Positions 3,257-48,335 are shown, counted from the stretch's first letter. The stretch is 64,000 nt of DNA from a virus (IMGVR_UViG_3300045988_122291:1-64000), one strand, 5' to 3'. Made by a program: numbers and translations. Notes: generated by a model not told the origin, from the letters alone.

Positions 3257-4510
3257 ATGGGAAATAGCTTACCAGCTATGGGCGGTATTCGCCGTAAGTT
3301 TATGGCGAAAGAACTCCGAGGGACAGTTAGCGGTGCTGATTTGCTTGAAAAAGAGCAAGAAGAAAAAGTAATTGAATGGGACACATTATTTAGACGTAAT
3401 TGGGATATATACGCAGAGTTTTATCTTGGTATTGGTCTAAAACCATATCAGCGTGAAGCGTTGCATGAGATTGGCACATCCGATGTGTTCTTTTGGCGTG
3501 CTGGGCGTGGTGGCGCAAAGTCATTTATTACCGCTCTTGCCGCAATTTGTAAACTGATGCTTTACCCAAACTGTTGGATTGTTGTTACTGCTTCTACCAT
3601 TGACCAAGCAAACAAAATTGTAGAAGATAAGATATTAAGTGAATTGGTTAAAAAATTATCACCATATTTGTTGTATCTTTATGAAAAGCAGTGGCTTGTT
3701 ATTACTAAACCACAAGACGGTTATAAGATTGAAAATACGCTGAACAATAGTGTATTGCGTGTCCTTGCTCCTGTTGAGTCCAGCCGTGGTGTGCGTTCAA
3801 ACTTCACAATTTATGATGAAGTTGCTATTATGAAGAAGGCGAGTATCGACCAAATCTTTGATGGTATGCTTTATCCGCGTCAGCCAGTGTTTTTGAACAA
3901 CAATCCAGAATATGCAAACAACCCACGTTGGCTTGAAGAATCAAAGGCTATTTATCTAACTTCTTCCAAATATAAATATCAATGGTGGTATGGACTTTGG
4001 AAGGAATGTGTTAAAGGTTGGTTTGACGATAAAAAGACAGTGTTCAATGTTTTCGCTTCAGACTTTTTCGATAATATTGATAACGGTCTAAAGACATGGG
4101 GCGACTATCGCCGTGCTAAAAAGACTACGGAAGAATTTTCTTTCCGTATGGAATATCTTAATGAAGCGATAGGCGAAAATGAACACGCCTATTTTACCAT
4201 TCAGCAATTCAAAGAAAACCAAACGCTTGAAAAAGCATTTGTTCCTCCAACAAATATCGAAGTTATAACTCAAACCGTGCCTTACAATCCACCGAAGGGC
4301 GAAGATGAAGTACGCTTGATTCTTGTTGACTACGCATTTGCTAATACAGTAAAGGGCGCTGGTCGAAAAGCAAACGACAATACGATTATTATTTGTATGT
4401 CTTTGCATTGGAAAGAGAATCATTTTGAGCGTCATGTTGATTATATTCAAGGTTGGGAGGCTTCTGATTCTACTGGTGCAGTAAATCGTATTCGTGAACT
4501 ATATTGGGAT
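3257..4510 (+). CDS. terL: terminase large subunit, exon 1 (ATPase and start of nuclease domain)
   Basis: Walker A-like RAGRGGAKS, Walker B-like TIYDEVA, nuclease-start LILVDYAF. The frame hits a stop 27 nt past the predicted 5' splice site (U4510). Confidence 0.85.
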
Positions 4511-5770
4511 GAACATTATTGTCCTCTCTTATGGTAACATAGGAGTAATAAATCTACTTAACTGCTGGAATATCCTTAGAGCTATATTGACTACAACGTA
4601 AGGATGAAATATGCCTAAACGTGAATGTTTGAAAACAATATAGATTGGACAATCAGCAACCAAGGCTCGAACAGAGCAAGGCTCAACGACCATCCCGTAA
4701 GGGAGTAGGGGCAAGTGCCCCGAAGTAGTAGACTTCCAGAAATGGAAGAAGATATGGTCTATTCTTCATAGAAATATGAAGGCGAAAGCAGACAAGAATA
4801 ACGAACTTGTTTACAGAATATAATAGGGAGACAGGGAGTAGCTACCTTTCTGATTTACTGCAATAATGAAGATTATCCCTATTATATATTAACTTTTTTG
4901 CAGAAAGGTTGATAAGTGATATGAAATGTTATGAAATTAAGCACAATAAGAAATTTCGATACTCTTGTATTTATTTATGGACAAATTTAATCAATAACAA
5001 AAAGTATGTAGGTCAAACACAAGACCTCGGAGAACGATTTGTTAGATATAATCAAAATGATTTTAATGATTATATGAAAAAAGCTGTAAATAAATATGGA
5101 ATAGATAATTTTGAAATAACAATTCTTGAAAAAGACGTTCCTAAAGAGAAGTTGAATGAACGAGAACAATATTGGATGGATTATTTTCAGTCTTATAATT
5201 CTGATTATGGATATAATATTTGCAAAATCGCAGGTAGCTGTCGCGGTGTAAAAAGAAGCGAAGAATATAAGCAAGCGTGTTCCGAGAGAATGCTTGATAG
5301 AATAGCTAATGGCGAAACAATTTGGCTTGGCAGAACTCATTCAAAAGAAACAAAAGAACTAATGTCTGAGAAAGCCAAGCAATTACATGAAAATTATCCT
5401 GAAATTTGGTCTAATCATCATAAATATACAGAAGAAGAAAAACAAGCAACTTCTGAATTTTTCAAAGAATATTGGAAAACTCATGAGCATTCTTGGAAGG
5501 GTAAAAATCATACACCTGAATCAAAGAAGAAAATGAGCGAAGCAATGAACAAAAACCCGAATAGGAACAGAAGAATGAGAAAAGTTGAATGTTACACTTT
5601 AGAAGGAAACTATATTTGTACTTATGTTTCCGCTTCTGAAGCTGCAAGAAGTATCGGGCATCCGAAAGGTGCTACTCCTATTCTTAGATGTGCTAAAGGC
5701 TATGAAAATTCAGCATACGGATTCAAATGGAAAGATGCTGGATTATATCACGAATCTGATAATATATAAG
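4511..5770 (+). mobile_element. group I-like intron in terL carrying a GIY-YIG homing endonuclease
   Basis: A 1,260-nt insert splits one terminase fold. Exon 1 ends in U and the insert ends in G. Joining gives ...RELYWD|YNADYIVDD... in frame. About 400 nt of stem-rich non-coding RNA (e.g. TAGAC 4729-4733 / GTCTA 4757-4761, GGGGC-AAGT-GCCCC) precedes the ORF. It shares a 37-nt block with the intron at 21351. Confidence 0.7.
4909..5769 (+). CDS. GIY-YIG homing endonuclease (I-TevI-like architecture)
   Basis: N-terminal CIYLWTN..KKYVGQT...GERF...YN...NEREQYW. Two NUMOD3-like repeats (GRTHSKETKELMSEKA, GKNHTPESKKKMSEAM). C-terminal HTH-like tail ending YGFKWK. The start may be TTG 4909 or ATG 4921. 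Confidence 0.85.
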   Translation: MISDMKCYEIKHNKKFRYSCIYLWTNLINNKKYVGQTQDLGERFVRYNQNDFNDYMKKAVNKYGIDNFEITILEKDVPKEKLNEREQYWMDYFQSYNSDYGYNICKIAGSCRGVKRSEEYKQACSERMLDRIANGETIWLGRTHSKETKELMSEKAKQLHENYPEIWSNHHKYTEEEKQATSEFFKEYWKTHEHSWKGKNHTPESKKKMSEAMNKNPNRNRRMRKVECYTLEGNYICTYVSASEAARSIGHPKGATPILRCAKGYENSAYGFKWKDAGLYHESDNI

Positions 5771-6382
5771 TATAATGCTGACTACATCGTTGACGACCAA
5801 CAGTCTGGCGGTGAAGTCATTTACAACTTGTTCACTCAACCTTGGGAGCATCCAGAAAGAGGACGCGCATGGAATAGTCACGGTTTTACTATCAGTGATA
5901 AAACTGAATATGTTTCAGCAGTGGCTATTGATAGCAAAATTGAAGATTATAAGATGCGTACAGTTGACCCACACGCTATTCCTTGCATTATTCCTGTTAA
6001 GGGTTCTTCAACACTTAACGATATTGTGTGGAAAGAAATGCGCCGTCAGCTTGAGTATGGTAATGTTAAGTTCTTGATTGACACTAACGATTTCCAAGAA
6101 ACTTTAGTTGACAATGGCGAATATTTCAAAATGACTTCTGAACAGTATGGCGTTGCTTGTGCTCCATACAATCACACAGAAGAATTGATAAAAGAAGCAG
6201 TCAACCTTAAAGCTGAGTTTAAGCAAGATAAGGTGCGTCTTTCTGAGCCGTTAAATGGCACAAAAGACCGTATTGTTGCTTTAGCCTATGGTAATTATAT
6301 TGCTACTTTAATTGAAAACAGATGGAATAAAGATATAGCACAAGATGAATTTGATATTGATTCAATTCAGCTTGTGTGGTGA
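5771..6382 (+). CDS. terL: terminase large subunit, exon 2 (nuclease domain, C-terminal part)
   Basis: YNADYIVDDQQSGGEVIYNLF continues the terminase nuclease domain begun in exon 1. There is no RBS or start of its own at this point. The joined product is about 621 aa. Confidence 0.8.
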   Translation, partial: YNADYIVDDQQSGGEVIYNLFTQPWEHPERGRAWNSHGFTISDKTEYVSAVAIDSKIEDYKMRTVDPHAIPCIIPVKGSSTLNDIVWKEMRRQLEYGNVKFLIDTNDFQETLVDNGEYFKMTSEQYGVACAPYNHTEELIKEAVNLKAEFKQDKVRLSEPLNGTKDRIVALAYGNYIATLIENRWNKDIAQDEFDIDSIQLVW

Positions 6383-6405
6383 TTATTAAAGAAAGGAGGA
6401 TTTGA

Positions 6406-16231: not shown

Positions 16232-16873
16232 ATGGCTTCTGCTAATATTTTCACCGCTGGCCCTGCTCGTGCGCTGTTTTTCTACGGTCAGGACTTGATT
16301 GGTGTTGGTACTACTCTAAGTGATACCACTTTCGATTCTTCTATCACCGCCGAGGAAGTACGCGGTGGTCAGGGCAACCTGCTCTACGGTCAATACTTCC
16401 ATGATTCTTCACTGACTGTTTCTATCACAGACGCAATGTTTAACCTTCAGTACGTTGCCGCAAACCTTGGTGTAAACCTCGAACAAGGTGGCATTTCTGT
16501 AACTGAAGAAGAGGTTGTTGTTGGCGCAGTTGGTGGCGCAGTAACACTAACTAACAAGCCAATCGCTTTCTCTGGTTCTTATATCGGTTGGTATAAGAAG
16601 CCTTCTGACGCTGACTGGTCTATCGGCACTATTGACGCTGACCAGAAGAAGATGAATATCGGTGGCGCAAAGGAAAACGAACATTATTGTGTTAAGTATT
16701 TCTATCAGAATGAGAACGCTAAGTCTATTACTATTAAGGCTCAGTTTGTTCCAAAGGTACTGCACCTTGTTCTGATTAACGACTTGTTCTCTGGTTCTAC
16801 CGCTGATGTAGCGGCTTCTACTGCTAAGTATGGTCGTCTAATTACTGATATTCCTCAGTTCCAGCTCGATGGT
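16232..16873 (+). CDS. major tail protein, exon 1
   Basis: 214 codons, strong structural-gene codon bias, located upstream of the tape measure. The frame stops 8 codons after the predicted 5' splice site (U16873). Confidence 0.6.
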
Positions 16874-17098
16874 AAAATTTTCAAGCGGTGTGCTTGAAAA
16901 TAACGCCACTTATATCAGGTGACTGGTATAAGCTCTGTGTTAAATGCTTTGAATCCCTAAAGCCTACAAAACTCAAACAGTAATTGGAAACGATAAGCTG
17001 TGTAGTTACGAAAGTAGAAAAAATTTGTAGGATATTCATAAGGTTAAATCCTAAGTGAATGTAAATGGGTCTTTAGCAGAGAAAGCCCTAAGTACATA

Positions 17099-17127
17099 TT
17101 GATTATTATTATAATATATAGTATAAT
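17099..17127 (+). promoter_or_regulatory. sigma-70-type promoter inside the intron (TTGATT-17-TATAAT)
   Basis: TTGATT 17099-17104, 17-nt spacer, TATAAT 17122-17127. Located about 100 nt upstream of the intron ORF. Confidence 0.4.
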
Positions 17128-17230
17128 ATGTATATGGGAGACTCCCAACGACTACTTCCTTGTGGGAAGGTAAGCCCAAGTGGGCTGAAAAATACAGCAC
17201 TTAATTATTCAAAAAAATATAAAAAAGAAG

Positions 17231-18073
17231 GTGATTATAATATTTGACGAAAATCAGCTTGTAGAAGTACGATGGAACTCTAATAATGTTAAGCATTTTA
17301 CTGCTTTAGGATATGAATTTACTAAACGCGGGGATACTTTTCAGGTTTTTGCGAAAGAGTTGCAAAATAGCAGTAGTTCTAAAGTAAAGTGTATTTGTGA
17401 TTATTGCGGACAAGAATTTATTACAAATTATGCTTTTTATAGAAAGAGCGTTAAACGTGGTAAATTAAGTTGTAAAAATTGCAAAAACAAGAAAATTGAA
17501 GATACCTTTATGCAAAAATATAGTGTAAAATCTGTTGGCGCTTCTGCGATTTGTCAAGAACGTGCAAAAGATACTATTGAGTGGCTTTACGGAAGTAGAT
17601 ATGCTATGCAAACTGAGCAAGGGCAAAAGCATTTCAAAGAAACCATGAAAGAACGATATGGTCATGAAAACCCTACATATTGTCCTGAGTTGGTTGAAAA
17701 AGCGCGACAGTCTATGTACGCAAATGGTACAGTTCTTTCTTCTAAGCCAGAACGTAAAATGGTTGAAATGTTAAAAGAATTGTATGGCGAACAAAATTGC
17801 ATACCTAATTTTCCAGTTGGAAACACCAATCTTGATTGTTTGCTAACGATTGGCGATATTAAGATTGACGTTGAATATGATGGAATTTATTGGCATAAAG
17901 ACAGAAAAGATTACGACCGCAAAAGGAATCATTGGCTTATAAGTCAGGGTTATAAAGTAATCAGAATTTTAGGCAATAATAGAAATACATTGCCTACACT
18001 TGAAAGACTTAAAGAAGAAGTAGATTATGTGCTGAATAATCACTCTTTAGGTTATATTGATATGAATAATTAA
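17231..18073 (+). CDS. intron-encoded Vsr/DUF559-like (PD-(D/E)XK) putative homing endonuclease
   Basis: C-terminal LDCLL...IKIDVEYDGIYWH...DRKRNHWLISQGYKVIRI matches the D...(E/D)xDGxxxH...D..R...L...G..V.R pattern of Vsr/DUF559 nucleases. Zinc-ribbon CDYCG...CKNC in the N-terminal part. The GTG start is uncertain. Confidence 0.6.
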   Translation: MIIIFDENQLVEVRWNSNNVKHFTALGYEFTKRGDTFQVFAKELQNSSSSKVKCICDYCGQEFITNYAFYRKSVKRGKLSCKNCKNKKIEDTFMQKYSVKSVGASAICQERAKDTIEWLYGSRYAMQTEQGQKHFKETMKERYGHENPTYCPELVEKARQSMYANGTVLSSKPERKMVEMLKELYGEQNCIPNFPVGNTNLDCLLTIGDIKIDVEYDGIYWHKDRKDYDRKRNHWLISQGYKVIRILGNNRNTLPTLERLKEEVDYVLNNHSLGYIDMNN

Positions 18074-18173
18074 GTTGAACATATAGTCTGCTCTCATGTG
18101 AAAGCATGAGCAGTTCATAAAAGAACGGCATAGAATTAACGACTCTATGTGAACATTAGGCGCACAAAATTTG

Positions 18174-18602
18174 GCATGGGCGGCAGCTTCTGCGGCAACT
18201 GTTTCCCTGTCTGGTAAGGCACTGGCATATGCTGATACCGAATCTTGCGAAGTAGACCCGGTATATGGCACTATGACTCAGGAAATTTTTGGCTCTAAGT
18301 GGCAAGATGATGTTGTGGCACTCGCTTGCGAGAACGCTGACCTTGATGTTGCTACTTCTGGTACTGATACTCTAATTGTTCGCGCAGTATTTGGTGGCGC
18401 AATTGCTTCTCAGCGTAAGGATAATTCTAACTTTACTTTCGCTGTTGTAGATGCTCCTGCTTCTACTGCAACTGGTACTACTGTTGGTGCTAATACTGGC
18501 ATTGTAACTGCTGGTACTCAAGCTGGTACTGCTGTAATTTCTATTACACTCACTGGCTATGCGAACGTACCGCCCGCATACGCTACCGTAACTGTTGGTT
18601 AA
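18174..18602 (+). CDS. major tail protein, exon 2 (includes C-terminal Ig-like domain)
   Basis: No independent RBS. The C-terminus TFAVVDAPAST...GTAVISITLTGYANVPPAYATVTV looks like the Ig-like extension common on siphovirus major tail proteins. The joined product is about 356 aa. Confidence 0.6.
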   Translation, partial: AWAAASAATVSLSGKALAYADTESCEVDPVYGTMTQEIFGSKWQDDVVALACENADLDVATSGTDTLIVRAVFGGAIASQRKDNSNFTFAVVDAPASTATGTTVGANTGIVTAGTQAGTAVISITLTGYANVPPAYATVTVG

Positions 18603-20231: not shown

Positions 20232-20263
20232 AAATAAGGTGTAGTACAGAATTGAGGATAACT

Positions 20264-20801: not shown

Positions 20802-21350
20802 ATGGCAGATTTTAAGATTTCTATTGATACTGAATTAAAAACTACTGGTATTGATGGTCAAGTACAAGAAATAAAGTCTAAACTTGAAAATGCTTTAAAA
20901 AACATTAAGGTGACTTTAGATACTGAAAGTGCTAAAACCGATATAAATGCCATTCTTAAATCAATTAGTGAAAAACCACAAGCGATTAAGATTACTGCTA
21001 ATGCTGATGAAGCTAAATCAGTTGTTGAAAGTCTTACTTCCGGGTTAAATAAAGAATCTACTATTAAAGTTAATGCTGATTCTTCTCAAGTAAAAGAATT
21101 AGGTAGTGCAAGTAGTGAAGCTGCTTCTCAAGTAAATAGTCTTACTGAATCTGGTGTAGCGGCTGGCGAGTCCTATGCACAGTTAATGACGACTTTTCAA
21201 CAAATGGTGCAAGTGTATCAATCTATTTCAGAGCAAGTTTTTGAAGTAGATGATGCACTCACCGAATTTAAGAAAGTATCTGACCTTAGTGGAGAATCGC
21301 TTAATCAGTATGTAAATCAATTACAAGATTTAGGTAGCACAGTAGGTCGT
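20802..21350 (+). CDS. tail tape measure protein, exon 1
   Basis: 183 codons, repetitive Ser/Thr/Lys-rich helical N-terminus. The frame stops 2 codons after the predicted splice site U21350. Confidence 0.6.
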
Positions 21351-21710
21351 ACCGGCTGATATACTAACCGGAGTGTATAGATGGTAAATATGCACTAAGA
21401 AGTGTTCAAAACCCTTGAAAGCCTAAGAGCCTTACTACCACAACATAAGGATGAGATACGCCTAAGTGTGACGGTATGGAAACTCAAAAAACAGTAAGGA
21501 TGATATATGGTGGCAACGCCTAAGTATTGATATAAATATTGTATAGTGTTGATATAGAAATATCAATAGTGTAAAGTATTTATATAAAAAATGGCAGTTT
21601 GGGCGCGAAGTCCTGATGAGGGATGTGTCAACAGAGTAAAAGTTCACTTCCCTCCAAGAATATAGGGAAAAGAAGTATTCGGGCTGTAAGAGAAATCTTA
21701 TGGAATTATC

Positions 21711-21738
21711 TTGACATTATTTAAGTGTGTGCTATAAT
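21711..21738 (+). promoter_or_regulatory. near-consensus sigma-70 promoter with extended -10 inside intron
   Basis: TTGACA 21711-21716, 16-nt spacer ending TGC, TATAAT 21733-21738. Followed by hairpin AGTATCA-gaaggaga-TGATACT that presents the SD in its loop, then ATG 21761. Confidence 0.6.
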
Positions 21739-21760
21739 AGTATCAGAAGGAGATGATACT

Positions 21761-21997
21761 ATGTTAGAATTTGTAGTAATCTTTAGTATTCTTGCTATTC
21801 TTAAAATAGCAACCACGCCGAATTTTATTTGGGGGGTATGCTTGCTTATATCTTTTGACACTTTGTTATTGACTCAAGAAGGGTGGCTAATTATTCCTTT
21901 GTTGATTAGTCTGGGAGTTTATTGCAAAGGTCGGAATAAGCGAGTTTATATGGACGAATCTTATTTTATTACACACTTTTTTAATAAATGGAAATAA
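21761..21997 (+). CDS. intron-borne small membrane protein (three predicted TM helices, basic C-tail)
   Basis: 78 aa beginning MLEFVVIFSILAILKIA, then FIWGVCLLISFDTLLL, WLIIPLLISLGVYC and KGRNKR. GAAGGAG RBS 7 nt upstream. No nuclease motifs. Confidence 0.55.
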   Translation: MLEFVVIFSILAILKIATTPNFIWGVCLLISFDTLLLTQEGWLIIPLLISLGVYCKGRNKRVYMDESYFITHFFNKWK

Positions 21998-22009
21998 TGC
22001 CAAATAACG

Positions 22010-22330
22010 TCTGAAATGCTGGACGCTACTACAGAATTTCGTAAAAATGGTTTTAATGACCAAGATGCCGCAACATTAGGCACACTTGCGGCTAAATTTC
22101 AAAATGTAAGTGATGAAGCAATCACAGCAGGAGATAGTGCATCGTTTATTATCTCTCAAATGATTGCGTTTGGCGTAGAAGCTGATAATGCGTCATCCAT
22201 TATTGATAGTGTTAACGAGGTTGCAAACCAGTTCTCGGTTTCTTCGGGCGACCTTTCTAAAGCATTGGGTAATGTTGCATCTACTGCTGGTGCAATGGGT
22301 AACTCAATGGAAGAAACCCTTGGCATGGCT
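22010..22330 (+). CDS. tail tape measure protein, exon 2
   Basis: 107 codons. TEFRKNGFNDQDAATLG...QFSVSSGDLSKALGNVASTAGAMGNSMEETLGMA is the classic tape-measure core pattern. It is cut mid-domain. Confidence 0.65.
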
Positions 22331-22586
22331 GAAATCAGGTCAAGTAAAACAGAGTGAATTGACGGGAAAGGAAATACGGCTCTACGGGGTACGATTTCAA
22401 CTGTGCAAAAGCATGGTTGCCTAAAGCCTTATACACGAACTTATCATGGTAACATAGGTAAGGGTTCGGAGTAATTAACCGAAATATCGTAAAAGAGATA
22501 AGGATATATGGTCAATCCGCAGGGAAGATACCGTTGAAATACGGTATAACCTTCATCGACTATCGAAAACAATCAAGAATTATTTC

Positions 22587-22615
22587 TTGACAAATGTAAC
22601 TATTTATGATACAAT
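22587..22615 (+). promoter_or_regulatory. consensus sigma-70 promoter with extended -10 inside intron
   Basis: TTGACA 22587-22592, 17-nt spacer ending TGA, TACAAT 22610-22615. Located 60 nt upstream of the endonuclease start. Confidence 0.6.
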
Positions 22616-22675
22616 ATGAATAGAATAAGATGATAATAAAATCATACGAAGTGAGTAGAGTAGGAGAAATCCGAA

Positions 22676-23866: not shown

Positions 23867-23872
23867 TATGTG

Positions 23873-26800: not shown

Positions 26801-29365
26801 GGTGCTGAAGTAGCTTCTGATATGGGTCTTGCTATTCAAGGCATGAACGACTATGAATCAGCGACCAAAAACGCTCAAACCGCCTCTCAAAATTTGAATG
26901 GTGTAAATCTAAGCGGTATTCAAAGCGGTATTAAAAAGACGGGAGATAATGCTAATACTGCTCAAGGACAAGTAGACAGCTTATATAATTCCGCTTCTAA
27001 ATTAGACCACACTTTTACTGCAAAATTCAAAGCAGATACAACACAGTGGAAATTACCAACTATTCCATTAGGATATACACAATCAGGTACAACCGCTGTT
27101 GGTCAAACTCCTGCTTATGCAAGCGGATTACAAGGTACGCAGCCTATGCGTGCTCAATCAAGCGGAATGTCTCTTGTTGGTGAAGAAGGCGCTGAGTTCC
27201 GTATTACCAAGGACGGTAAAAAAGAACTCGTTGGTGAAAATGGCGCAGAGTTTGTAAAAGTAAACAAAGGCGATACTATTATTCCCGCTGATGCAACAGA
27301 AATGATTCGCAAAGGTGAGCTTAATGGATATGATGGTGGTTTGCGTGGTAGAACTACTGCAAGTGGTACTGGTGTCGCGAACGCAAGTCATGATGTTAAA
27401 ATAGGTGATATTACCAGTCGTTATACTGGTGAAAAAATTGCTTCTATTTCTAAAGCCACAAAAGCTACTTCTTCAAATACTAAGGCAACCAATTCTAATA
27501 CTTCTGCAAAGTCCGCAAACGCTTCTGCAAGTGCTAAAGCTACTGAAGCAACAGATGAATTAACAGATGCACAGAAAAAGCAGAAAGATGCCTTTGAAGA
27601 AGCCAACGATGTAACTGAGCATCATATTTTCCTTGCTGAAAAGAATGGCGCTTCTTATGAAAAGCTCATTAAGATGAATCGTGACTATCAAAAGCAGATT
27701 CAACAGCAAGCTGACTGGTGGCGTAGTCAAGGTTATGACAATGATTTAGAAGAAATTCGCAAATTACAAAAACTTTGGTGGCAAGTAGAAGATGACATAA
27801 CTTCTTATCAGAAGAAAGCTTTTGATGAACGTTATCAAGAATCTAAAGATTATATTGATGACCGCAATGACCTTGAAGATTGGGGCGCTGACTCTGAGAT
27901 TGAAGCATGGCATCGTGTAGAAACATGGATGGACGAATGGTATAAGAATGGACTTATTTCTTATGACTATTATCTTGAAAAGCGTAAAGAAGCTACAAAG
28001 AAAGCCGCCGAAGCAGAGAAAAAAGCGTGGAAAGAAGCCAAAGAAGCGGAGAAAAAACGTCTTGAAGATTGGCAAGATGTTTATGAGGACTTGTTTGACC
28101 TTGTAGCTGATAAGGCACAAGACGAAATCGACAAACTGGAAGAACAACGTGATACAGTTGAAAAATATTGGGACGATAAAATTGATGCGCTTGAAAAGGC
28201 GAACGATGAACTTGATGACCAGATTGAAAAGGAAGAAGCACTTGATGCTTTGGCTCGTGCTCGTTCCACTAAAGTTATGGTTTATCAAGATGGACGATTC
28301 CAATATATCAATGACGCGGATGAAGTTTCTGAAGCTAAAGCTAATCTTGATAAAATCGAACGTGACCAAGCGCTTGAAAGAGAAAAAGAAAATCTCGAAA
28401 AGCAAAAAGAAGCCGCTCTAAAAGCTATTGATGACCAGATTGATGCTTGGGAAAAGTATAAAGATGAATGGTCTAACGTTGTTTCTGAATATGAGAAAGA
28501 ACAAAAACGTCTTAATGTTCTTCAAAAACTTGGTGTTGACCTTGAAGCAGAAAACTGGAAAGAACGTCTTGGTAATCTTGAAGATTATGTTTCTCAATAT
28601 AAGAAATATATGCAAGAACTTACCAAAATTAACGCCGAACTTGAAGCAGAAAAAGATATTACTGTGGATTCCAACAAAGTATCTTCGGGTGCTTCTGCTG
28701 GTGGCGCAATCGGTTCAGTCATAGGCACTGCTACAGGAGGTATTCTTGGCGGTGTAATCGGAACGATTATTGGTACTGCTACAGGTGCGCTTAAAGGAAC
28801 GAGTAGTGGTAAGGGTTCTTCAAGTAAGGGAAGTTCTTCTTCAAGTAGTAGTAATAGTGTAATTAGTTCCGATAAAGGATATACTATCACTACAAATAAG
28901 GGTACAAGTTTTGTTAATAGTGCACCATCGGGTTCTACAATGACTGGTGGTGATGGCTCTAAGTGGACTAAGAACAAAGATGGTTCTACTACTATTAAAA
29001 CAAAAGACGGAACAACCCACACAGTTAAAGCGACTACAAAGCGTGCTTCTGGTACAAAGTATGCGCCTCGTGGTATAGCTCTTACAGGCGAAGAAGGTGC
29101 TGAACTTCAAGTTCTGAATCAAGGCGATGGCATTATTCCACACGACTTAACTTCTAATCTTTGGGAGTGGGGCGAAACTAAACCGAGTGATATTGTTTCT
29201 GCGTTCGCTGGTATTCAAAAAGACCAATCTGGTGTGACAATTTGCATAGAAAACTTCAATCCTTCTCTACCCAATGTTGTGGATGGTGAAGGTTTTGCTA
29301 ATTATCTCAAGAATAATTTCTGGCGTAATGTTATTCAGTATAAAACAACTATGGGGAGGGCGTGA
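23873..29365 (+). CDS. tail tape measure protein, exon 3
   Basis: 1,830 codons. Continues the tape-measure core (TRNASKASRSLNTIFSRLSQ). Long coiled coils, a Gly/Ser-rich hydrophobic patch, and two LVGEEGAE/LTGEEGAE...GD.IIP motifs typical of tape-measure C-termini. The joined protein is about 2,120 aa. Confidence 0.85.
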   Translation, partial: VTAITEQTRNASKASRSLNTIFSRLSQVTDENSDTGKKLTDIYDGLNIALYDSEGQMRSSYDILSDLSTKWDSLSKNQQNYIALTSAGSNQLNAFLALMNNFGHATEATETAINSAGSATKENERYMESLQAQVQALKAEFQEFATNILSSDLVKGFLQAGTSILKFANTDLGQAISKILLFNLTVNGISGILDLFGANISKVLNPMGGLNTIFEKASEIFVKFTSGATEAGAASSGLGGIISQLGSSFSGLSSGASTSVSAIKNIVGAISALPLPVKIAVAAIAGLIAIYNKLHVSDKELTQSIADKETTINNTKSQIDEYNSTLESNKQRIEEINSVKGTSDWNSSLQTEADTLEHQNQLIERQIQLQEQKLKIEQAALWKDQSEQFERTYGEKMRYTTKQQNVRGEQVSVTLTGEDAYKKKLSDLQVTIHKFTQTQNLDFKDAAVEAEDSIVSIITELEDYKSAAEAAGDTTKAKYIQSLIDMAEAADSVDGGTIKEVLESTADGEASVEEQTSKLVSKLKELGDISIKPKDADSMQEWLESLDSSQVEKLNSLIDDLGNRSDWLAAQISNMSGAEAVSYIDEVFRRLSGDIRSAGEAYSDFENALNTDYSAPLKEVYEMMDYITQSTENGITNLKAYNASLQGIYGTTDKNIIKITEQNAAMSDFRNVAQEAAEGQATLVGNIEQYFSDGVFQGDLLLDRLKELSTSATAISKYGKLLDFQEFDDGTFQIAINDFSKLSEVLGLSDPVLKSFMDSLGGTVDFQMGDTIDAVTTTIQNLHEAISATGTGSISAIANEIKQLQSVGEVDIRTDRLQELQTQLNGLSKYTNMTFDYDFSSLTGGELDVASDELTGFATALQNLTTESGDWDLQGLVDSVNSALGDEAITLDGDEITFNTDEAVSAFQSQLSEAFGGMDYSDIIGSDAGQTIISNLFEGVTVDASAAEGVGQEFADAIKTSVETKLNTTQITINGVGAEVASDMGLAIQGMNDYESATKNAQTASQNLNGVNLSGIQSGIKKTGDNANTAQGQVDSLYNSASKLDHTFTAKFKADTTQWKLPTIPLGYTQSGTTAVGQTPAYASGLQGTQPMRAQSSGMSLVGEEGAEFRITKDGKKELVGENGAEFVKVNKGDTIIPADATEMIRKGELNGYDGGLRGRTTASGTGVANASHDVKIGDITSRYTGEKIASISKATKATSSNTKATNSNTSAKSANASASAKATEATDELTDAQKKQKDAFEEANDVTEHHIFLAEKNGASYEKLIKMNRDYQKQIQQQADWWRSQGYDNDLEEIRKLQKLWWQVEDDITSYQKKAFDERYQESKDYIDDRNDLEDWGADSEIEAWHRVETWMDEWYKNGLISYDYYLEKRKEATKKAAEAEKKAWKEAKEAEKKRLEDWQDVYEDLFDLVADKAQDEIDKLEEQRDTVEKYWDDKIDALEKANDELDDQIEKEEALDALARARSTKVMVYQDGRFQYINDADEVSEAKANLDKIERDQALEREKENLEKQKEAALKAIDDQIDAWEKYKDEWSNVVSEYEKEQKRLNVLQKLGVDLEAENWKERLGNLEDYVSQYKKYMQELTKINAELEAEKDITVDSNKVSSGASAGGAIGSVIGTATGGILGGVIGTIIGTATGALKGTSSGKGSSSKGSSSSSSSNSVISSDKGYTITTNKGTSFVNSAPSGSTMTGGDGSKWTKNKDGSTTIKTKDGTTHTVKATTKRASGTKYAPRGIALTGEEGAELQVLNQGDGIIPHDLTSNLWEWGETKPSDIVSAFAGIQKDQSGVTICIENFNPSLPNVVDGEGFANYLKNNFWRNVIQYKTTMGRA

Positions 29366-40448: not shown

Positions 40449-40456
40449 TAAATAAT

Positions 40457-40492
40457 AGGGAAGATAGTTAATTCTATCTTCCCTATTTTTTT
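40457..40492. terminator. bidirectional Rho-independent terminator at the convergence of the two arms
   Basis: Perfect 11-bp stem AGGGAAGATAG / CTATCTTCCCT with a 6-nt loop and T7 downstream. A/T-rich upstream flank, so the opposite strand also sees a T-rich tail. Confidence 0.75.
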
Positions 40493-43262: not shown

Positions 43263-43295
43263 AATGATTCCTCCTTAAATTTAGATACATAAAAG

Positions 43296-43363
43296 AATAA
43301 GTGTGTACTAATTGTCTTTCCTTAGTACACACTTATTGTATCATGCTATTTAGTTCTTGTCAA
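43296..43363 (-). promoter_or_regulatory. promoter abutting a terminator hairpin (thyX-like / dut junction)
   Basis: Minus strand: TTGACA (43363-43358), 17-nt spacer ending TGA, TACAAT (43340-43335). A perfect 16-bp inverted repeat follows (43337-43322 / 43311-43296, 10-nt loop), then TCTTTTA. Confidence 0.55.
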
Positions 43364-44531: not shown

Positions 44532-44589
44532 AAAAAACAATACTTCTTGTTCATATAGATAGTATATCACAAGAAGTATTGTAAGTCAA
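44532..44589 (-). promoter_or_regulatory. nested terminator-promoter cassette
   Basis: Minus strand: TTGACT (44589-44584), 17-nt spacer ending TGA, TATACT (44566-44561). Perfect 14-bp inverted repeat 44582-44569 / 44550-44537, so the 5' arm lies in the spacer and the -10 lies in the loop. T6 and AAGGAGAG follow. Confidence 0.6.
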
Positions 44590-44596
44590 GGGTTAT

Positions 44597-44833
44597 TTAG
44601 TTGTCAGAATTAAATAGTGTAACATTACAGTCAATCATGATAACATGGTTGTTGTTATAAGAATAGGTAACGTTATCTACACGAGCAATTTCACAACCAT
44701 TAGGTGAAGTGTAAATATATTCGCCTACACGCGGAGTGGGAGAACCAAGTGGCACTTCCCATTGTACATACGCATAGTCATTGTAATAACCTGTTTCTGC
44801 ATCAAGGTCAAATAGTCTGATTAGTGTGTTCAT
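44597..44833 (-). CDS. hypothetical small protein
   Basis: 78-aa ORF whose start overlaps the nrdG stop. Confidence 0.45.
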   Translation of the reverse strand: MNTLIRLFDLDAETGYYNDYAYVQWEVPLGSPTPRVGEYIYTSPNGCEIARVDNVTYSYNNNHVIMIDCNVTLFNSDN

Positions 44834-45354: not shown

Positions 45355-45363
45355 ACTGACACC

Positions 45364-46326
45364 TCACATTGATTTACGGTCTTTGAACTCTGCGAGTTTG
45401 TGGTCTGCATACATGGTTCTGCCTTTGATTTTAGAATATCCTAAATACCCGTTCATTCTCTCAATACGAGTGATGTTTTTACTGCCACATTTAGGACATT
45501 CGTCCTTATCAATGAAAGAAGCACCGCAATCTTCACAATAATCAAGCTGTAGATTTACACCTTCATAGAAGCCCATATCCATTGCTCTACGAATGAGAGT
45601 TTTCATTGCTTCAATATTGTAGTCTGTAGTATAACGGCAGTATTGAATATTACCACCATTGCAGAGATGGAACATTGGATATTCAATATCTTGCTTTTGA
45701 ATAGGTGAAATATCTTCCCATACACCACAATGGAATGAATTAGAAGTGTAAGGACGGTCAGATACGCCCTTAATAATGCCGTATTTCTTGCGGAACTGCT
45801 CGACCTGCAAACCGCAAAGGGATTCAGCAGGAGTTCCGTAAAGAGCATATAGAATGTTGTCGATTTTCTTATACTTTTCAGCATAATCATTGATAAACTT
45901 CAGAACTTCAATAGCAAAAGTATTATCTTCAGCAATGGTTTTACCGTTGTACAGTACACTGGTTTCATTGAGTGCAGTAATACCAAAACTCATTGTCATA
46001 GGACGAAGGAAATCTTCGCCAATTTCTTCTTCTGGGTCAAAGTGACCGTTAAGGAAACCGCCTTGACAGAAAGCAAGTGGGTTAGTACCAGCTTTCTTGT
46101 GAGAAAGATAAGTAAATGTGCGCTTATGAATAGCGCGGCACATATCAAGATAATAAGTTAGTACATCATAAAAATCCTTGTTTTCTTGCTTTGCCTTAGC
46201 AAGAATCATAGGAAAGTGAAGAGAGATTGCTCCGAGGTTACAACGCCCTTCATATACAGGCTTGTCTTGGTCATCTGCGGGGTACATACCGCCACGCTCA
46301 TACCAAGGTGAAAGATTTGCTCGACA
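45364..46326 (-). CDS. nrdD: anaerobic ribonucleoside-triphosphate reductase, exon 2
   Basis: CRANLSPW continues the conserved MGCR motif. Contains GRCNLGAISL, the C-terminal zinc site CEDCG...CPKCG, and the glycyl-radical motif RMNGYLGY. Confidence 0.85.
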   Translation of the reverse strand, partial: CRANLSPWYERGGMYPADDQDKPVYEGRCNLGAISLHFPMILAKAKQENKDFYDVLTYYLDMCRAIHKRTFTYLSHKKAGTNPLAFCQGGFLNGHFDPEEEIGEDFLRPMTMSFGITALNETSVLYNGKTIAEDNTFAIEVLKFINDYAEKYKKIDNILYALYGTPAESLCGLQVEQFRKKYGIIKGVSDRPYTSNSFHCGVWEDISPIQKQDIEYPMFHLCNGGNIQYCRYTTDYNIEAMKTLIRRAMDMGFYEGVNLQLDYCEDCGASFIDKDECPKCGSKNITRIERMNGYLGYSKIKGRTMYADHKLAEFKDRKSM

Positions 46327-47147
46327 CAAGGGAATTATATCCCTTAGACTATATCATAATTGTTTGGTCAATTCTTCGCGCTTCCATAGCAAGAATTGCA
46401 CTTGCTATGTACTCTACTCGGTTACTTTCTGATACAACCCAAATTACATATCAGATACCCTTTTGATAGTCGTTTAACATACATATTCAAATTTGTAATT
46501 ATCAAAATAATTAGGACTTAGTTCGCCTTTTAGCACTCGCGCAATTTTGTGCCTATCCATATGTAAGCACCTACCAGCTTCACGAATAGAAGTGAAATTT
46601 TGCACATTGCCTTCTTTGTCAATAGCGCGAACAGCCGTGTTGTTTTTATGTGTTCTATTGCCACTATCCCAACCATGTTGTACATTATAAGCATTAGTAC
46701 ACCATTCAAGGTTTCCAAGACGGTTGTCTGTTTTATCAGAATTGATATGGTTAACGTACTTATAATTATTAGGATTTGGAATGAAACAATGCGCTAAGAT
46801 AACATGAACTCGTTCATGTACAAAAGTGTGGTCAGGTAAACTACGCATTACTTGTATATATCCATCACTGCCTTTATGTGGGGCGACTTGATTACCTGTA
46901 CGAGAGTTATAAAAGTTAAAATTTTCATCTACCAAAAATCCGTTGTATTCTTTATATTGCATTTTATCACCTTCTTTCGTATAAAATTATTTGAATATGC
47001 TTAGCACAGCGATTATTTCATACTTTTGTATGAACCTTCCCTGTTAGCAGAGATATTAACAAACCATTTCCTGTTTGAACTTACGTTATCTCCACACCAT
47101 ATATTTATATGTTCACGAAGTTTTACATGGGCTATCGTGTCATTTCA
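46327..47147 (-). mobile_element. group I-like intron in nrdD carrying an HNH homing endonuclease
   Basis: An 821-nt insert that splits M-G|C-R. Exon 1 ends in U (47148) and the insert ends in G (46327). The in-frame stop TGA forms the first 3 nt of the insert. Structured flanks of about 185 nt (5') and 147 nt (3'). Confidence 0.7.
46474..46962 (-). CDS. HNH homing endonuclease (NUMOD4 + HNH_3 type)
   Basis: N-terminal YKEYNGFLVDENFNFYNSRTG. HNH region VNHINSDKTDNRLGNLEWCTNAYNVQHG. C-terminal FTSIREAGRCLHMDRHKI HTH-like segment. Confidence 0.8.
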   Translation of the reverse strand: MQYKEYNGFLVDENFNFYNSRTGNQVAPHKGSDGYIQVMRSLPDHTFVHERVHVILAHCFIPNPNNYKYVNHINSDKTDNRLGNLEWCTNAYNVQHGWDSGNRTHKNNTAVRAIDKEGNVQNFTSIREAGRCLHMDRHKIARVLKGELSPNYFDNYKFEYVC

Positions 47148-48335
47148 ACCCATTCGACTAATAGTTACACCATACTTTTTATAAATTTCTGGCGCATAAC
47201 CGTCACCTGTACACGAGATAAAATCAGGGTACATACATTTGCTACTGCAATCAATCGCTTCATCAAACAGCCATTCCAGTTCTTTACCTTCGCCGTGAAG
47301 TTCTTTATCATAAAGGAAACTTAGTTTAGGAAATAGTACAGGATGTTTGAAACCTTTCTTACCTTGCCCTTCCTTGCGTACTCTTAGGCAAACAGAAGAT
47401 AGCATAGATTCCATACGGTTAGTACCCAGACCAAAAGAAACAGCAGTAAACGGATAATCGCCACGACTTGAAGCCACAGAATTAAACTTCATTTCCCATG
47501 CTTGGAAACCTTGCTCTGCTTCACGAGCAACTTTATTAAAAGCATAAGTATCTGCCGCTTGTTCGAAGTCCTTGCCACCAGTATCACCTTGCCAATCTTC
47601 CACGATTGTAAAATAATCTTGGTAATATTTTTCATAACTCTTTTGAGCATAAGGAGCAAGTAGTTTATCAATTTCGCTGATTGTATAGCCACCATACTGA
47701 GCCGCCGCCATATTCATAGCAACATCAGCTACAAGGTCAAAAGCTACATCAAGGCTATGTGGTTCTTCATAATCGAGATTACCCATAGTAAATCCACCAG
47801 TAAGAATTGACTTCATATCAGCAAGGCAACAGTTTACACTATCAAGTCTTGAGCCACGGTCGTGAATATAGATATAGCCTTCAGACATAGCTTGTTCTTC
47901 TTCGATAGTAAGGAAGAATTTCTTGTAAAGTTCACTGTTTAATTCGTTATAGACAATAGCCTTTTGTGTGGTTACAAGAGCACTATCGGCATTAGCATTG
48001 CTTCTATCTCCGATAAAAGATAGAGACAGCTTTTTGCTATATACCTTATCCAACATTGAAGCAAAGGCACTCTTATTGTCACGATATTCACGATAAGATT
48101 TTGCTACCGCTGAATTAACCGAATCAAGAGCAACTTCTACCATATTGTGAATAGTATTGACAGGAACAGGAGTTTCATTGTACTGTAACTTGCCACGAAC
48201 GGTTGATACAACCTTATCTTCATCATTCTTAGATAAAGGCATACATACACGTTCCGCACTTTTTTGGATAGCTTTGCGAATCTTGTTTCCGTCAAAATTT
48301 ACGATAGCCCCATTCTTTTTAAGGACTTTAATCAT
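47148..48335 (-). CDS. nrdD: anaerobic ribonucleoside-triphosphate reductase, exon 1 (ATP-cone + catalytic N-part)
   Basis: ATP-cone start MIKVLKKNGAIVNFDGNKIRKAI. Ends ...GVTISRMG, mid-way through the conserved MGCR motif. The joined product is about 716 aa. Confidence 0.85.

What the first reader, a model, noticed from the sequence alone, without database searches (positions are those of the whole stretch)
3257..48335. Five intron-like insertions in four essential genes within one 64-kb window
terL, the major tail gene, the tape measure gene (twice) and nrdD are each cut inside a conserved domain by an insert of 0.66-1.5 kb. In all five cases a junction can be placed where the upstream exon ends in U and the insert ends in G (the group I rule). 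Joining then restores a continuous, sensible protein: RELYWD|YNADYIVDD, FQLDG|AWAAAS, STVGR|SEMLDATTEF, EETLGMA|VTAITEQ and ISRMG|CRANLSPW. The inserts carry three different homing-endonuclease classes plus one non-nuclease cargo, and a sixth, free-standing HNH gene abuts dnaE. Introns in nrd genes and in some structural genes are known in phages. Even so, this density, a tape measure gene in three exons and an intron in the major tail gene are unusual. Virion assembly would depend on RNA splicing at four or more sites.
Basis: partly seen in the sequence, partly recalled or inferred. Interest (0 to 1): 0.8.

Follow-up and report, generated by a model that had tools for sequence, protein, structure and literature searches.

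The report
Five group I introns in phage genes
An uncultured gut phage related to Enterocloster phages carries five self-splicing (group I) introns in its terminase, major tail, tape measure (two) and anaerobic ribonucleotide reductase genes; this kind of element is well known, but three of the five splice junctions first proposed were misplaced.

Summary
The five inserts are real, and all five have group I intron architecture. Rfam's group I model scores 69.2 bits in terL, above the curated cut-off. It gives sub-threshold hits in the major tail gene, TMP intron 2 and nrdD (21.9, 25.9 and 12 bits). TMP intron 1 gets no Rfam hit, but six homologous introns at the same site show covarying P1-P10.

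Splicing restores complete proteins. NRDD and PhageMin_Tail each become one continuous Pfam match, and terL aligns without gaps to an intronless homologue.

Intronless relatives place the others at FQLDG|AQNLAWAAAS, STVGRTG|SEMLD and EETLGM|VTAITEQ. At these true junctions the last exon base is G, C and G, not U.

The cargoes are confirmed:
- a GIY-YIG endonuclease;
- an HNH endonuclease;
- two PD-(D/E)XK (Vsr-like) endonucleases;
- one small membrane ORF with its own consensus promoter.

This is not a new kind of element. Group I introns in tape measure genes (two per gene), tail tube genes and terminase genes have been described in Bacillus prophages, phage Twort and Bastillevirinae. Verdict: new members of a known kind. 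One oddity is worth an RT-PCR: an apparent G at the 5' splice site in the major-tail intron family.

The parts
3257..4510 (+). terL exon 1 (418 codons, ends ...RELYWD)
   Evidence: TerL_ATPase Pfam match. The join aligns without gaps to the intronless PMBT24 terL.
4511..5770 (+). terL group I intron (1260 nt). The ribozyme core is about 4511-4790, and the ORF lies 3' of the core.
   Evidence: RF00028 scores 69.2 bits (cut-off 50), E=3.7e-17, at 4501-4781. P1 is GGGAU/GUCCU with U4510 paired to G4521. P10 is AUAAU/AUUAU, and the last intron base (omega) is G5770 (read).
4909..5769 (+). GIY-YIG homing endonuclease ORF (likely ATG at 4921)
   Evidence: GIY-YIG 46.5 bits and NUMOD3 34.7 bits, both above cut-off. 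PHROG 314 'homing endonuclease', E=1.2e-27.
5771..6382 (+). terL exon 2 (starts YNADYIVDD)
16232..16872 (+). Major tail protein exon 1 (ends ...FQLDG, contributing the first two bases of the Gly codon)
   Evidence: The intronless alleles L007 (98% identical) and L008 (95%) read CTCGATGGCGCACAAAAT.
16873..18160 (+). Major tail gene group I intron (1288 nt). The boundary can slide by 1-2 nt because of a GG repeat. The ORF sits in the P8 loop.
   Evidence: RF00028 scores 21.9 bits, E=0.0055, on J8/7-P7'-P9 at 17929-18110. CAACGACUA is at 17146-17154. RNAalifold on six family members gives 40 pairs, 20 of them with compensatory changes.
17231..18073 (+). PD-(D/E)XK (I-Bth0305I-like, DUF559) homing endonuclease ORF
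   Evidence: DUF559 28.6 bits, above its cut-off, and DUF7487. The best PDB hit is 3r3p 'Mobile intron protein', E=0.0075. PHROG 12131 'homing endonuclease'.
18161..18602 (+). Major tail protein exon 2 (starts with C of the Gly codon, then AQNLAWAAAS)
20802..21356 (+). Tape measure exon 1 (185 codons, ends ...STVGRTG)
   Evidence: Ungapped against CB473P1 (VARTADEM) and P0014 (VGRTGSEM).
21357..22009 (+). Tape measure intron 1 (653 nt). It is group I by comparative structure and gets no Rfam hit.
   Evidence: No RF00028 hit. Homologous introns sit at the same site in L037-L044. RNAalifold gives 63 pairs, 19 with compensatory changes. P7 covaries: GAGUA/UAUUC, GAAUA/UAUUC, GAGUA/UACUC, GACUU/UAGUC and GAUUA/UAAUC.
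21711..21738 (+). Consensus sigma-70-type promoter inside intron 1 (TTGACA-16-TATAAT, with TG extension)
   Evidence: 12 of 12 matches.
21761..21997 (+). Small membrane-protein ORF (78 aa), the non-nuclease cargo
   Evidence: An AGGAG ribosome-binding site precedes the ATG. No Pfam or PHROG match. All homologous introns carry a promoter-like site, an RBS and a small transmembrane ORF at the same position.
22010..22327 (+). Tape measure exon 2 (106 codons, SEMLD...EETLGM)
22328..23872 (+). Tape measure intron 2 (1545 nt, or equivalently 22329-23873). The core is about 22328-22726, and the ORF runs from P9 to 6 nt before the 3' splice site.
   Evidence: RF00028 scores 25.9 bits, E=1.1e-4, at 22421-22726, including UUCAUCGACUA and GAAGAUAUAGUC. 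The junction is set by intronless homologues, which read LG[M/V][V/L/M]TAITE.
22712..23866 (+). Vsr-fold (PHROG 559) homing endonuclease ORF, with an 11/12 promoter-like site at 22587-22615
   Evidence: PHROG 559, E=1.3e-46. This family is reported as Vsr-superfamily and intron-borne in Bastillevirinae terL (PMC11878797). Promoter-like site.
23873..29365 (+). Tape measure exon 3 (starts VTAITEQ). The spliced TMP is 2121 aa.
47148..48335 (-). nrdD exon 1 (ends ...ISRMG)
   Evidence: ATP-cone plus NRDD profile positions 2-243.
46327..47147 (-). nrdD group I intron (821 nt). It begins with the in-frame stop UGA, and the ORF lies upstream of J6/7.
   Evidence: P1 is AUGGGU/GCCCAU with U47148 paired to G47132. 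P10 is UGUCG/CGAUA. AAACGACUA, AUGAUAUAGUCU, a P9 hairpin and omega G46327 are all present (read). RF00028 gives only 12 bits.
46474..46962 (-). HNH homing endonuclease ORF (I-HmuI-like)
   Evidence: HNH_3 29.6 bits and I-HmuI_NUMOD-like 28 bits, both above cut-off. PHROG 59.
45364..46326 (-). nrdD exon 2 (starts CRANLSPW)
   Evidence: Ungapped across the conserved PMGCRSFL motif of solved NrdD structures. The spliced protein gives one NRDD match of 352 bits.
60857..61432 (-). Free-standing NUMOD4/HNH endonuclease gene that overlaps the dnaE start
   Evidence: NUMOD4 47.5 bits. PHROG 59, E=2.3e-37.

Best explanation
All five inserts are group I self-splicing introns.

What is shown: each has P1 pairing between the exon end and an internal guide sequence, a P3-P9 core with the J6/7-P7 and J8/7-P7' motifs, and a terminal G. 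Removing each insert at the site defined by intronless relatives restores a full-length protein.

What is inferred from established knowledge of the family:
- After transcription each intron folds, and a free guanosine attacks the 5' splice site.
- The freed exon end then attacks after the terminal G and joins the exons. TerL (621 aa), the major tail protein (360 aa), the tape measure protein (2121 aa) and NrdD (716 aa) can then be translated.
- Four introns carry homing endonuclease genes (GIY-YIG, HNH and two PD-(D/E)XK/Vsr-like). These would cut intronless alleles in co-infecting relatives and copy the intron in by repair.

Translation from the upstream exon stops at the first intron codon (nrdD, TMP intron 1) or within 7-9 codons (the others). 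In every case this is before the ribozyme core.

TMP intron 1 carries no nuclease. Instead it has a small membrane-protein gene with its own consensus promoter.
For: Covariance model: RF00028 scores 69.2 bits in terL, above the cut-off. It scores 21.9 bits, 25.9 bits and 12 bits in the introns whose core is split or extended by an ORF.

Comparative structure: the TMP intron 1 family gives 63 pairs, 19 with compensatory changes. P7 and P3 covary and the P3/P7 pseudoknot is kept. P10 covaries between L037 (UCAGA/UCUGA) and L043 (UCUGA/UCAGA). The major-tail intron family gives 40 pairs, 20 with compensatory changes.

Host gene restoration:
- The spliced TMP gives one PhageMin_Tail match of 110 bits covering profile 3-196. 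The separate exons score 52.6 and 38.7 bits.
- The spliced NrdD gives one NRDD match of 352 bits.
- NrdD aligns ungapped across the conserved MGCR motif.
- terL aligns ungapped to PMBT24.
- The major tail exons match intronless alleles of 95-98% identity exactly.

Mobility signature: related phages carry the same or other introns at three sites in the major tail gene and at four or more sites in TMP. Other relatives are intronless at each of these sites.

Endonuclease families.

In-frame stops near the intron starts.

Precedent for introns in each host gene type: PMC2504315, PMC11878797, PMC4299906.
Against: No RNA or protein data exist for this phage. Four of the five introns score below Rfam's curated cut-off, and one scores nothing.

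At three true junctions the last exon base is not U. It is G16872, C21356, and G22327 or G22328. The U-G wobble at the 5' splice site is described as critical and highly conserved (PMC4227781).

The window's copy of TMP intron 1 has a shortened P1 loop. It has only four Watson-Crick pairs plus C opposite A, and it lacks the P10 pairing that its relatives have. Its ability to splice is therefore the least certain.

The 5' junction of TMP intron 2 rests on homologues of about 70% identity, not on a near-identical intronless allele.
Confidence: 0.87

Rival explanations
1. The genes are truly split by inserted endonuclease cassettes, and each piece is made as a separate polypeptide that assembles afterwards. 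Split topoisomerase and nrd genes in T4-type phages work this way.
For: Gene callers annotate the pieces as separate proteins in related genomes. Database proteins start at exon boundaries, for example P0001 begins MVDAAGEF.
Against: The downstream pieces have no ribosome-binding site and no sensible start at the junction. Each insert contains a group I core whose guide sequence pairs with both flanking exons. TMP exon 2 is a 106-codon internal slice of a single Pfam domain. The insert boundaries match intronless alleles to the nucleotide.
Confidence: 0.04
2. The reader's canonical U…G junctions are the ones actually used in the major tail gene and in both TMP introns. The proteins would then be 4 aa shorter, 2 aa shorter and 1 aa longer than those of relatives.
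For: Each of these junctions is in frame and obeys both textbook rules. The U-G wobble is highly conserved (PMC4227781).
Against: Their P1 and P10 pair with ACCGGU and UCAGA instead. L030 has no equivalent in-frame U…G option. For TMP intron 2, all 10 intronless homologues examined lack the extra residue.
Confidence: 0.06
3. At least one of the five introns, most likely TMP intron 1 in this copy, can no longer splice on its own. It would either need a host or phage factor, or this assembled genome is not viable.
For: The window's TMP intron 1 has a truncated P1 loop, C opposite A where relatives have U-G, and no P10. Four of eight Bastillevirinae introns that were tested spliced only in infected cells (PMC11878797).
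Against: The rest of the core is well conserved, with compensatory changes. As I recall from Tetrahymena ribozyme work, which I did not check here, a C-A pair can adopt the same wobble shape as U-G. The flanking exons are intact and in frame.
Confidence: 0.15
4. The interruptions are inteins, stop-codon recoding or programmed frameshifts, not RNA introns.
For: None specific.
Against: Every insert has stop codons in the host reading frame within 0-9 codons. The rest of the window reads as long ORFs under the standard bacterial code. The insert lengths do not preserve a readable frame through the inserts.
Confidence: 0.01

Closest known systems
Group I introns in tape measure, large terminase and tail tube genes of Bacillus cereus-group prophages (Tourasse & Kolstø 2008, PMC2504315)
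   Same: The host gene types are the same. TMP carries introns at several sites, with two in one gene, and a terminase intron in the same prophage. The introns are in frame and begin with, or soon reach, a stop codon. Similar introns are adapted to different sites through P1 changes.
   Different: The phage lineage is different (a gut phage related to Enterocloster phages). Most Bacillus prophage introns lack an intact endonuclease gene, whereas four of the five here have one. No promoter-driven small membrane ORF is described there.
Twortvirinae and Bastillevirinae introns, including Twort orf142 (tail tube gene, three introns)
   Same: These are IA-type cores with P7.1/P7.2. Genomes carry multiple introns: six in the one analysed Siophivirus genome. 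Vsr-fold PHROG 559 endonucleases sit in terL introns. The major-tail intron core here shares 72-82% DNA identity over about 150-190 nt with introns of Staphylococcus and Enterococcus Herelleviridae.
   Different: The authors state that in Bastillevirinae introns were found only in DNA-metabolism and packaging genes. Here three of the five are in tail genes.
Phage T4 td, nrdB and nrdD introns with I-TevI, I-TevII and I-TevIII
   Same: An nrd gene is the host. The endonucleases are GIY-YIG and HNH. From memory, the nrdD (sunY) intron has its ORF downstream of the catalytic core with a distant 3' splice site, as in terL and both TMP introns here.
   Different: Whether the nrdD insertion site is the same was not tested. 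Here the cut falls between G and C of the conserved MGCR motif.
I-Bth0305I, a PD-(D/E)XK homing endonuclease (PDB 3r3p)
   Same: It is the best solved-structure match to the major-tail intron ORF, over the catalytic domain including the VEYDGxYWH region.
   Different: The match is weak (18.8 bits, E=0.0075). The N-terminal two thirds of the ORF is unrelated to it.
Cluster J mycobacteriophage capsid and tail gene introns (PMC3706429)
   Same: These are introns in virion structural genes that were found by comparison with intronless relatives and confirmed by RT-PCR.
   Different: There is one intron per genome. The hosts are high-GC. The reported junctions are canonical U and G.

Membership tests
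Group I intron (Rfam RF00028 and the classical definition) | The covariance model reaches the curated gathering score (50 bits) | tested here: inconclusive
   Met for terL: 69.2 bits. Below cut-off for the major tail gene (21.9 bits), TMP intron 2 (25.9 bits) and nrdD (12 bits). No hit for TMP intron 1. In the low scorers, an ORF or extra helices interrupt the core. Whole-window scans missed even the terL hit.
Group I intron | Conserved core: P3-P8 with the P3/P7 pseudoknot, J6/7-P7 (UCAAnGACUA-like) and J8/7-P7' (GAAGAUAUAGUC-like) | tested here: met
   The motifs are present in all five and P7 is complementary in each. terL has GACCA/UGGUC. The major tail gene, TMP intron 2 and nrdD have GACUA/UAGUC. 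TMP intron 1 has GAGUA/UAUUC. Covariation in relatives supports P2, P3, P4, P6, P7 and P8 for the TMP intron 1 and major-tail families.
Group I intron | The last intron nucleotide is G (omega G) | tested here: met
   G5770, G18160, G22009, G23872 (or G23873) and G46327 at the junctions defined by intronless homologues.
Group I intron | The last 5' exon nucleotide is U, forming a U-G wobble in P1 | tested here: not met
   Met in terL (U4510 with G4521) and nrdD (U47148 with G47132). Not met in the major tail gene, where G16872 pairs with C16906 and the U-G pair involves the first intron base. Not met in TMP intron 2 (G at -1). Not met in TMP intron 1, which has C21356 opposite A where its relatives have U-G. 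This lowers confidence that those three are fully canonical. It does not affect the core architecture.
Group I intron | The guide sequence also pairs with the start of the 3' exon (P10) | tested here: inconclusive
   5 bp in terL and in nrdD. 2 bp, covarying across relatives, in the major-tail family. 2 bp in TMP intron 2. Absent in the window's TMP intron 1, although its relatives have 5 bp.
Group I intron | Guanosine-dependent self-splicing of the transcript | not testable with these tools
   This needs an in vitro transcription and splicing assay, or cDNA from infected cells.
Homing endonuclease genes (GIY-YIG, HNH, PD-(D/E)XK) | The catalytic domain is recognised above the family threshold | tested here: met
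   GIY-YIG 46.5 bits against a cut-off of 22.6. HNH_3 29.6 against 24.8. DUF559 28.6 against 20.6. For the TMP intron 2 ORF the Pfam hit is below threshold, but PHROG 559 gives E=1.3e-46. The two PD-(D/E)XK ORFs are not detectably similar to each other by BLASTP.
Homing endonuclease genes | Cleavage of the intronless allele, followed by intron homing | not testable with these tools
   The only evidence is indirect. Intron-plus and intron-minus alleles coexist among close relatives at the same sites.

The most novel reading that the evidence does not exclude
The major-tail intron family splices at a non-canonical 5' site. The family includes relatives in Staphylococcus and Enterococcus Herelleviridae, and perhaps TMP intron 2.

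In the family, the last exon base is G in a Watson-Crick pair with the guide sequence. The conserved U-G wobble is formed by the first intron base, one position downstream of where the textbook puts the cut.

The layout is exon…G | U…intron…G | Y…exon. It holds for six sequence variants at three different insertion sites that have near-identical intronless alleles. It also fits the Staphylococcus tail-lysin intron, and the 5' end of the Enterococcus tail-tube intron.

A second reading that is not excluded: TMP intron 1 and its relatives have swapped the endonuclease for a promoter-driven small membrane protein. The intron would then act as a safe landing pad for an accessory gene.
Probability: 0.5. 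Interest if true: 0.55.

Novelty: new member of a known kind. Interest (0 to 1): 0.3.

Why it matters
For annotation: this gut-phage clade is full of unannotated introns. In published Enterocloster phage genomes terL is listed as three 'hypothetical proteins'. Standard Rfam scans miss these introns, so tail, tape measure, terminase and nrdD genes are being called as fragments.

For method: choosing splice junctions with the U…G rule alone gave in-frame but wrong proteins in three of five cases. Intronless relatives are the reliable guide.

For biology: the apparent G at the 5' splice site in one intron family would be a useful natural test of how the ribozyme chooses its cut site. The endonuclease-free intron with its own promoter and small membrane ORF is also worth testing. 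Both are cheap RT-PCR or expression experiments.

The basic phenomenon, virion assembly depending on RNA splicing, is already established in other phages.

Tried and rejected
- Whole-window Rfam scans at the gathering and E-value thresholds found no intron. This was a filter artefact and I did not count it as negative evidence.
- Motif searches for J8/7-P7' and J6/7-P7 turned up a candidate at 50905-50912. That region is filled with small genes and contains no intron.
- Megablast of 21 kb against the phage collection found no close relative.
- I looked for close relatives of TMP intron 2 to fix its 5' junction. An exact DNA pattern search, its endonuclease protein and TMP exon 3 against IMG/VR all gave nothing close. 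The ENA contig L049 carries the same intron but starts inside it.
- RNAalifold paired the P3 5' strand with a nearby GGGC. I replaced this with the pseudoknotted P3, which fits group I topology and covaries.
- BLASTP between the two PD-(D/E)XK ORFs found no significant similarity.
- Literature searches for natural exceptions to the U-G rule in phage introns found nothing useful.
- I considered, and rejected on the sequence, canonical cutting after the U followed by a +1 frameshift, and a pyrimidine as the last intron base. I also rejected inteins and stop-codon recoding.

Full report
**What is in the window.** The + strand from about 100 to 40,400 carries a virion module: terL, portal, capsid, major tail, tape measure and distal tail genes. 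The - strand beyond it carries replication and nucleotide-metabolism genes, including nrdD/nrdG and a 1309-aa DnaE. No close relative exists in the phage collection at the DNA level. At the protein level the nearest cultured relatives are Enterocloster bolteae phages (PMBT24 and the CB457/CB473 series), at about 35-45% identity. IMG/VR holds uncultured relatives whose major tail protein is up to 98% identical.

**The observation.** Four genes are interrupted, five times in all.
- terL: 3257-4537 and 5624-6382.
- Major tail: 16232-16897 and 18171-18602.
- Tape measure: 20802-21359, 22016-22357 and 23870-29365.
- nrdD on the - strand: 48335-47145 and 46329-45364.

Pfam shows the splits fall inside single domains. 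The NRDD profile is divided into 2-243 and 264-560. PhageMin_Tail is divided into 20-125 and 122-196. On the coding strand, the only stretches of 150 nt or more without an ORF are five segments: 4538-4908, 16898-17230, 21360-21724, 22425-22675 and 46963-47144. These are the ribozyme cores. No sixth, ORF-less intron is hiding elsewhere in the window.

**Are they group I introns?** Whole-window Rfam scans returned nothing. Searching 1.3 kb around the terL insert gave RF00028 at 69.2 bits (cut-off 50, E=3.7e-17), covering the full model at 4501-4781. The earlier negatives were therefore filter artefacts.

Short-range searches of the other inserts gave the following.
- Major tail: 21.9 bits (E=0.0055) on the J8/7-P7'-P9 segment.
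- TMP intron 2: 25.9 bits (E=1.1e-4), covering P4-P6, UUCAUCGACUA and GAAGAUAUAGUC plus P9.
- nrdD: 12 bits.
- TMP intron 1: nothing.

In the low scorers an ORF interrupts or follows the core. In the major tail intron the ORF sits in the P8 loop, and in nrdD it lies just before J6/7. By eye, all four carry the IA-type signature: CAACGACUA (or -CCA), the P7.1/P7.2 hairpins, then GAWAUAUAGUC/GGUC and a P9 hairpin. P7 is complementary in each.

**TMP intron 1 needed comparative analysis.** Six IMG/VR contigs have an insert of 572-746 nt at the same codon, and a seventh has one of 1.7 kb. An alignment of five gave an RNAalifold consensus of 63 pairs, 19 of them with compensatory changes. Read with group I topology it contains:
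- P1;
- an 8-bp P2 that covaries at six positions;
- P3, followed by an AAA J3/4;
- P4 (CCCUU/AAGGG);
- an extended P5 with two 11-nt-receptor-like motifs;
- P6;
- UGUGUCAAnnGAnUA (J6/7-P7);
- P8;
- GAAGAAnUAnUC (J8/7-P7');
- a GAAA-capped P9.

The central P7 pair is G-U, A-U, G-C, C-G or U-A in different members and is always complementary. P3 forms the expected pseudoknot. The same treatment of the major-tail intron family gave 40 pairs, 20 with compensatory changes.

**Where the junctions really are.**
- The terL join aligns without gaps to the intronless PMBT24 terL: IRELYWD|YNADYIVDD against IREFFFDYQADYVVLD. P1 is GGGAU/GUCCU, with U4510 paired to G. A 5-bp P10 is present.
- The nrdD join lies between G and C of the conserved PMGCRSFL motif of solved NrdD structures, with no gap. 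P1 is 6 bp (AUGGGU/GCCCAU) and P10 is 5 bp.

The other three junctions are wrong.
- Major tail: the intronless alleles L007 (98% identical) and L008 (95%) read …CTCGATGGCGCACAAAATCTGGCATGG…, which encodes FQLDGAQNLAWAAAS.
- TMP intron 1: relatives end exon 1 with ACCGGU, which pairs with GCCGG in P1. Exon 2 begins UCAGA, which pairs with UCUGA next to it. The product is VGRTG|SEM, which removes the 2-aa gap against CB473P1 and matches P0014 exactly.
- TMP intron 2: all 10 intronless homologues examined read LG[M/V][V/L/M]TAITE. The product is therefore LGM|VTAITEQ, one codon shorter than proposed.

With these junctions the spliced proteins are free of stops: 621, 360, 2121 and 716 aa. The spliced TMP gives one PhageMin_Tail match (110 bits, profile 3-196). 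The spliced NrdD gives one NRDD match (352 bits, profile 2-560).

**An unexplained detail.** At the true junctions the intron always ends in G. The last exon base, however, is U only in terL and nrdD.

In TMP intron 1 of this window it is C opposite A, where the six relatives have U-G.

In the major tail intron it is G16872, paired with C16906. The U that pairs with the guide-sequence G is the first intron base.

The same layout recurs in six sequence variants at three insertion sites of the major tail gene: codons 214/215, 67/68 and 48/49. The layout is exon…G | U…G | Y…exon. For two of the sites a near-identical intronless allele is available, and the window itself serves as that allele for site 67/68.

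Cutting after the U instead would have one of two consequences. It would require a pyrimidine as the last intron base. Otherwise it would leave an extra nucleotide and shift the frame. At site 67/68 it would also turn the conserved DAMF into DVMF.

Homologous cores in cultured phages fit the same layout. In the Staphylococcus phage tail-lysin gene both ends fit. In the Enterococcus phage gene that follows the tail sheath, only the 5' end could be read.

TMP intron 2 also has G at -1 in either permitted register. I could not find this described, and a review calls the U-G pair critical and highly conserved (PMC4227781). It needs cDNA and intron 5'-end mapping.

**Cargo.**
- terL intron: a GIY-YIG/NUMOD endonuclease.
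- nrdD intron: an HNH endonuclease of the I-HmuI type.
- Major tail intron: a DUF559 PD-(D/E)XK protein whose best solved relative is I-Bth0305I.
- TMP intron 2: a PHROG 559 protein (E=1.3e-46). This family is reported as Vsr-fold and intron-borne in Bastillevirinae terL (PMC11878797).

TMP intron 1 has no nuclease. After P9 it carries a perfect TTGACA-16-TATAAT promoter (12/12), an AGGAG ribosome-binding site and a 78-aa ORF with two or three hydrophobic helices. The ORF has no family match. Every homologous intron has a promoter-like site, an RBS and a different small transmembrane ORF at the same place, which suggests the arrangement is selected. Its function is unknown.

The sixth endonuclease gene (60857-61432, NUMOD4/HNH) is free-standing and overlaps the dnaE start.

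**Mechanism.** The structure and the exact restoration of the host genes are shown. Splicing itself and homing are inferred from what is established for the family. The upstream reading frame stops at the first intron codon in nrdD and TMP intron 1. It stops within 7-9 codons in the others. This matches the pattern noted for Bacillus introns (PMC2504315). Three introns (terL and both TMP introns) have the ORF between the core and the 3' splice site. As I recall, the T4 nrdD intron has the same arrangement.

**The splicing-defective rival.** The main rival that remains open is that one copy, most likely TMP intron 1 here, splices poorly or needs a helper factor. It has a shortened P1 loop and no P10.

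**Other rivals.** Separate translation of the gene pieces is very unlikely. The downstream exons have no start signals, and TMP exon 2 is an internal slice of a single domain.

**How new is it?** Not very.
- Tourasse and Kolstø (PMC2504315) described group I introns at three TMP sites in Bacillus cereus-group prophages. One prophage has two TMP introns plus a terminase intron, and they also found an intron in a tail tube gene.
- Twort orf142, with three introns, is a tail tube gene, and the one analysed Siophivirus genome carries six introns (PMC11878797).
- Terminase introns go back to Lactobacillus phage LL-H (PMC4299906).
- Capsid and tail introns are confirmed in mycobacteriophages (PMC3706429).

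Within this phage clade introns are common.
- Relatives have them at two other sites in the major tail gene.
- Relatives have them at three or more other sites in TMP.
- One contig has two TMP introns separated by a 50-nt exon.
- Published Enterocloster phage genomes have two unannotated introns in terL.

Five introns in 64 kb is at the high end but within the known range.

**Verdict.** The finding is real and correctly interpreted in kind. It is wrong in three junction placements and overstated in rarity. I score it as new members of a known kind, interest 0.3. Two details are worth a small experiment: the apparent G at the 5' splice site, and the promoter-plus-membrane-ORF cargo.

Noticed in passing
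window 21711-21997; L037, L038, L039, L041, L043, L044 (intron 3' halves): TMP intron 1 carries a 12/12 consensus promoter, an RBS and a 78-aa membrane ORF in place of an endonuclease. All six homologous introns carry a promoter-like site, an RBS and a different 65-82-aa ORF at the same position. In those six the ORF has an N-terminal hydrophobic helix and a charged tail.
   Followed up: partly
window 16870-16875, 18158-18162; L009, L027, L028, L029, L030 junctions; L051, L052, L053: In the major-tail intron family the junction inferred from intronless alleles puts G at the last exon position, not U. The U-G wobble is formed by the first intron base. Staphylococcus and Enterococcus Herelleviridae introns with a similar core fit the same layout.
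   Followed up: partly
window 4501-4781: Rfam scans of the whole 64-kb window missed a group I hit that scores 69.2 bits when 1.3 kb is searched. The speed filters can hide true introns in AT-rich phage DNA.
   Followed up: yes
L002 (Enterocloster phage CB473P3, OP172757.1 7185-10627): The terL of the published CB457/CB473 Enterocloster phages is in three exons that are annotated as separate hypothetical proteins. The introns follow query residues about 178 and 427, and one carries an I-TevI-like gene. The second site is only about 10 codons from the window's terL intron site.
   Followed up: partly
L049 (ENA ERZ15609813 NODE_4745) 1-2180: A relative whose TMP is 79-90% identical at the DNA level has the same TMP intron 2. 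A second intron of about 1.57 kb, with a 396-aa ORF, follows after a 50-nt micro-exon. That second intron has a TMP-intron-1-type core and C at -1.
   Followed up: partly
L009, L010, L028 (codon 67/68); L029, L036 (codon 48/49); L044, L045 (other TMP sites): Relatives carry introns at two further sites in the major tail gene and at several further sites in TMP. Some are compact and ORF-less (378 and 455 nt). The clade is an intron hot spot.
   Followed up: partly
window 20252-20797: A RuvC-like nuclease ORF (RuvC 23.3 bits, DUF3882) sits inside the tail module, immediately upstream of the tape measure start. This is an odd place for a junction resolvase, so it may be another mobile or accessory nuclease gene.
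   Followed up: no
window 43286-43346, 48380-48432, 40445-40490: Near-perfect hairpins were reported as spurious miRNA or UTR family hits in the permissive Rfam scan. They are probably transcription terminators between gene blocks.
   Followed up: no
L050 (Staphylococcus phage DELF3 92932-94685); L051 (Enterococcus phage phiEF17H 20641-22527): Cores similar to the major-tail intron occur in two other places. One is a Silviavirus exonuclease gene, next to an ORF annotated as transposase. The other is the Enterococcus phage gene that follows the tail sheath, probably the tail tube. Neither is annotated as an intron.
   Followed up: no
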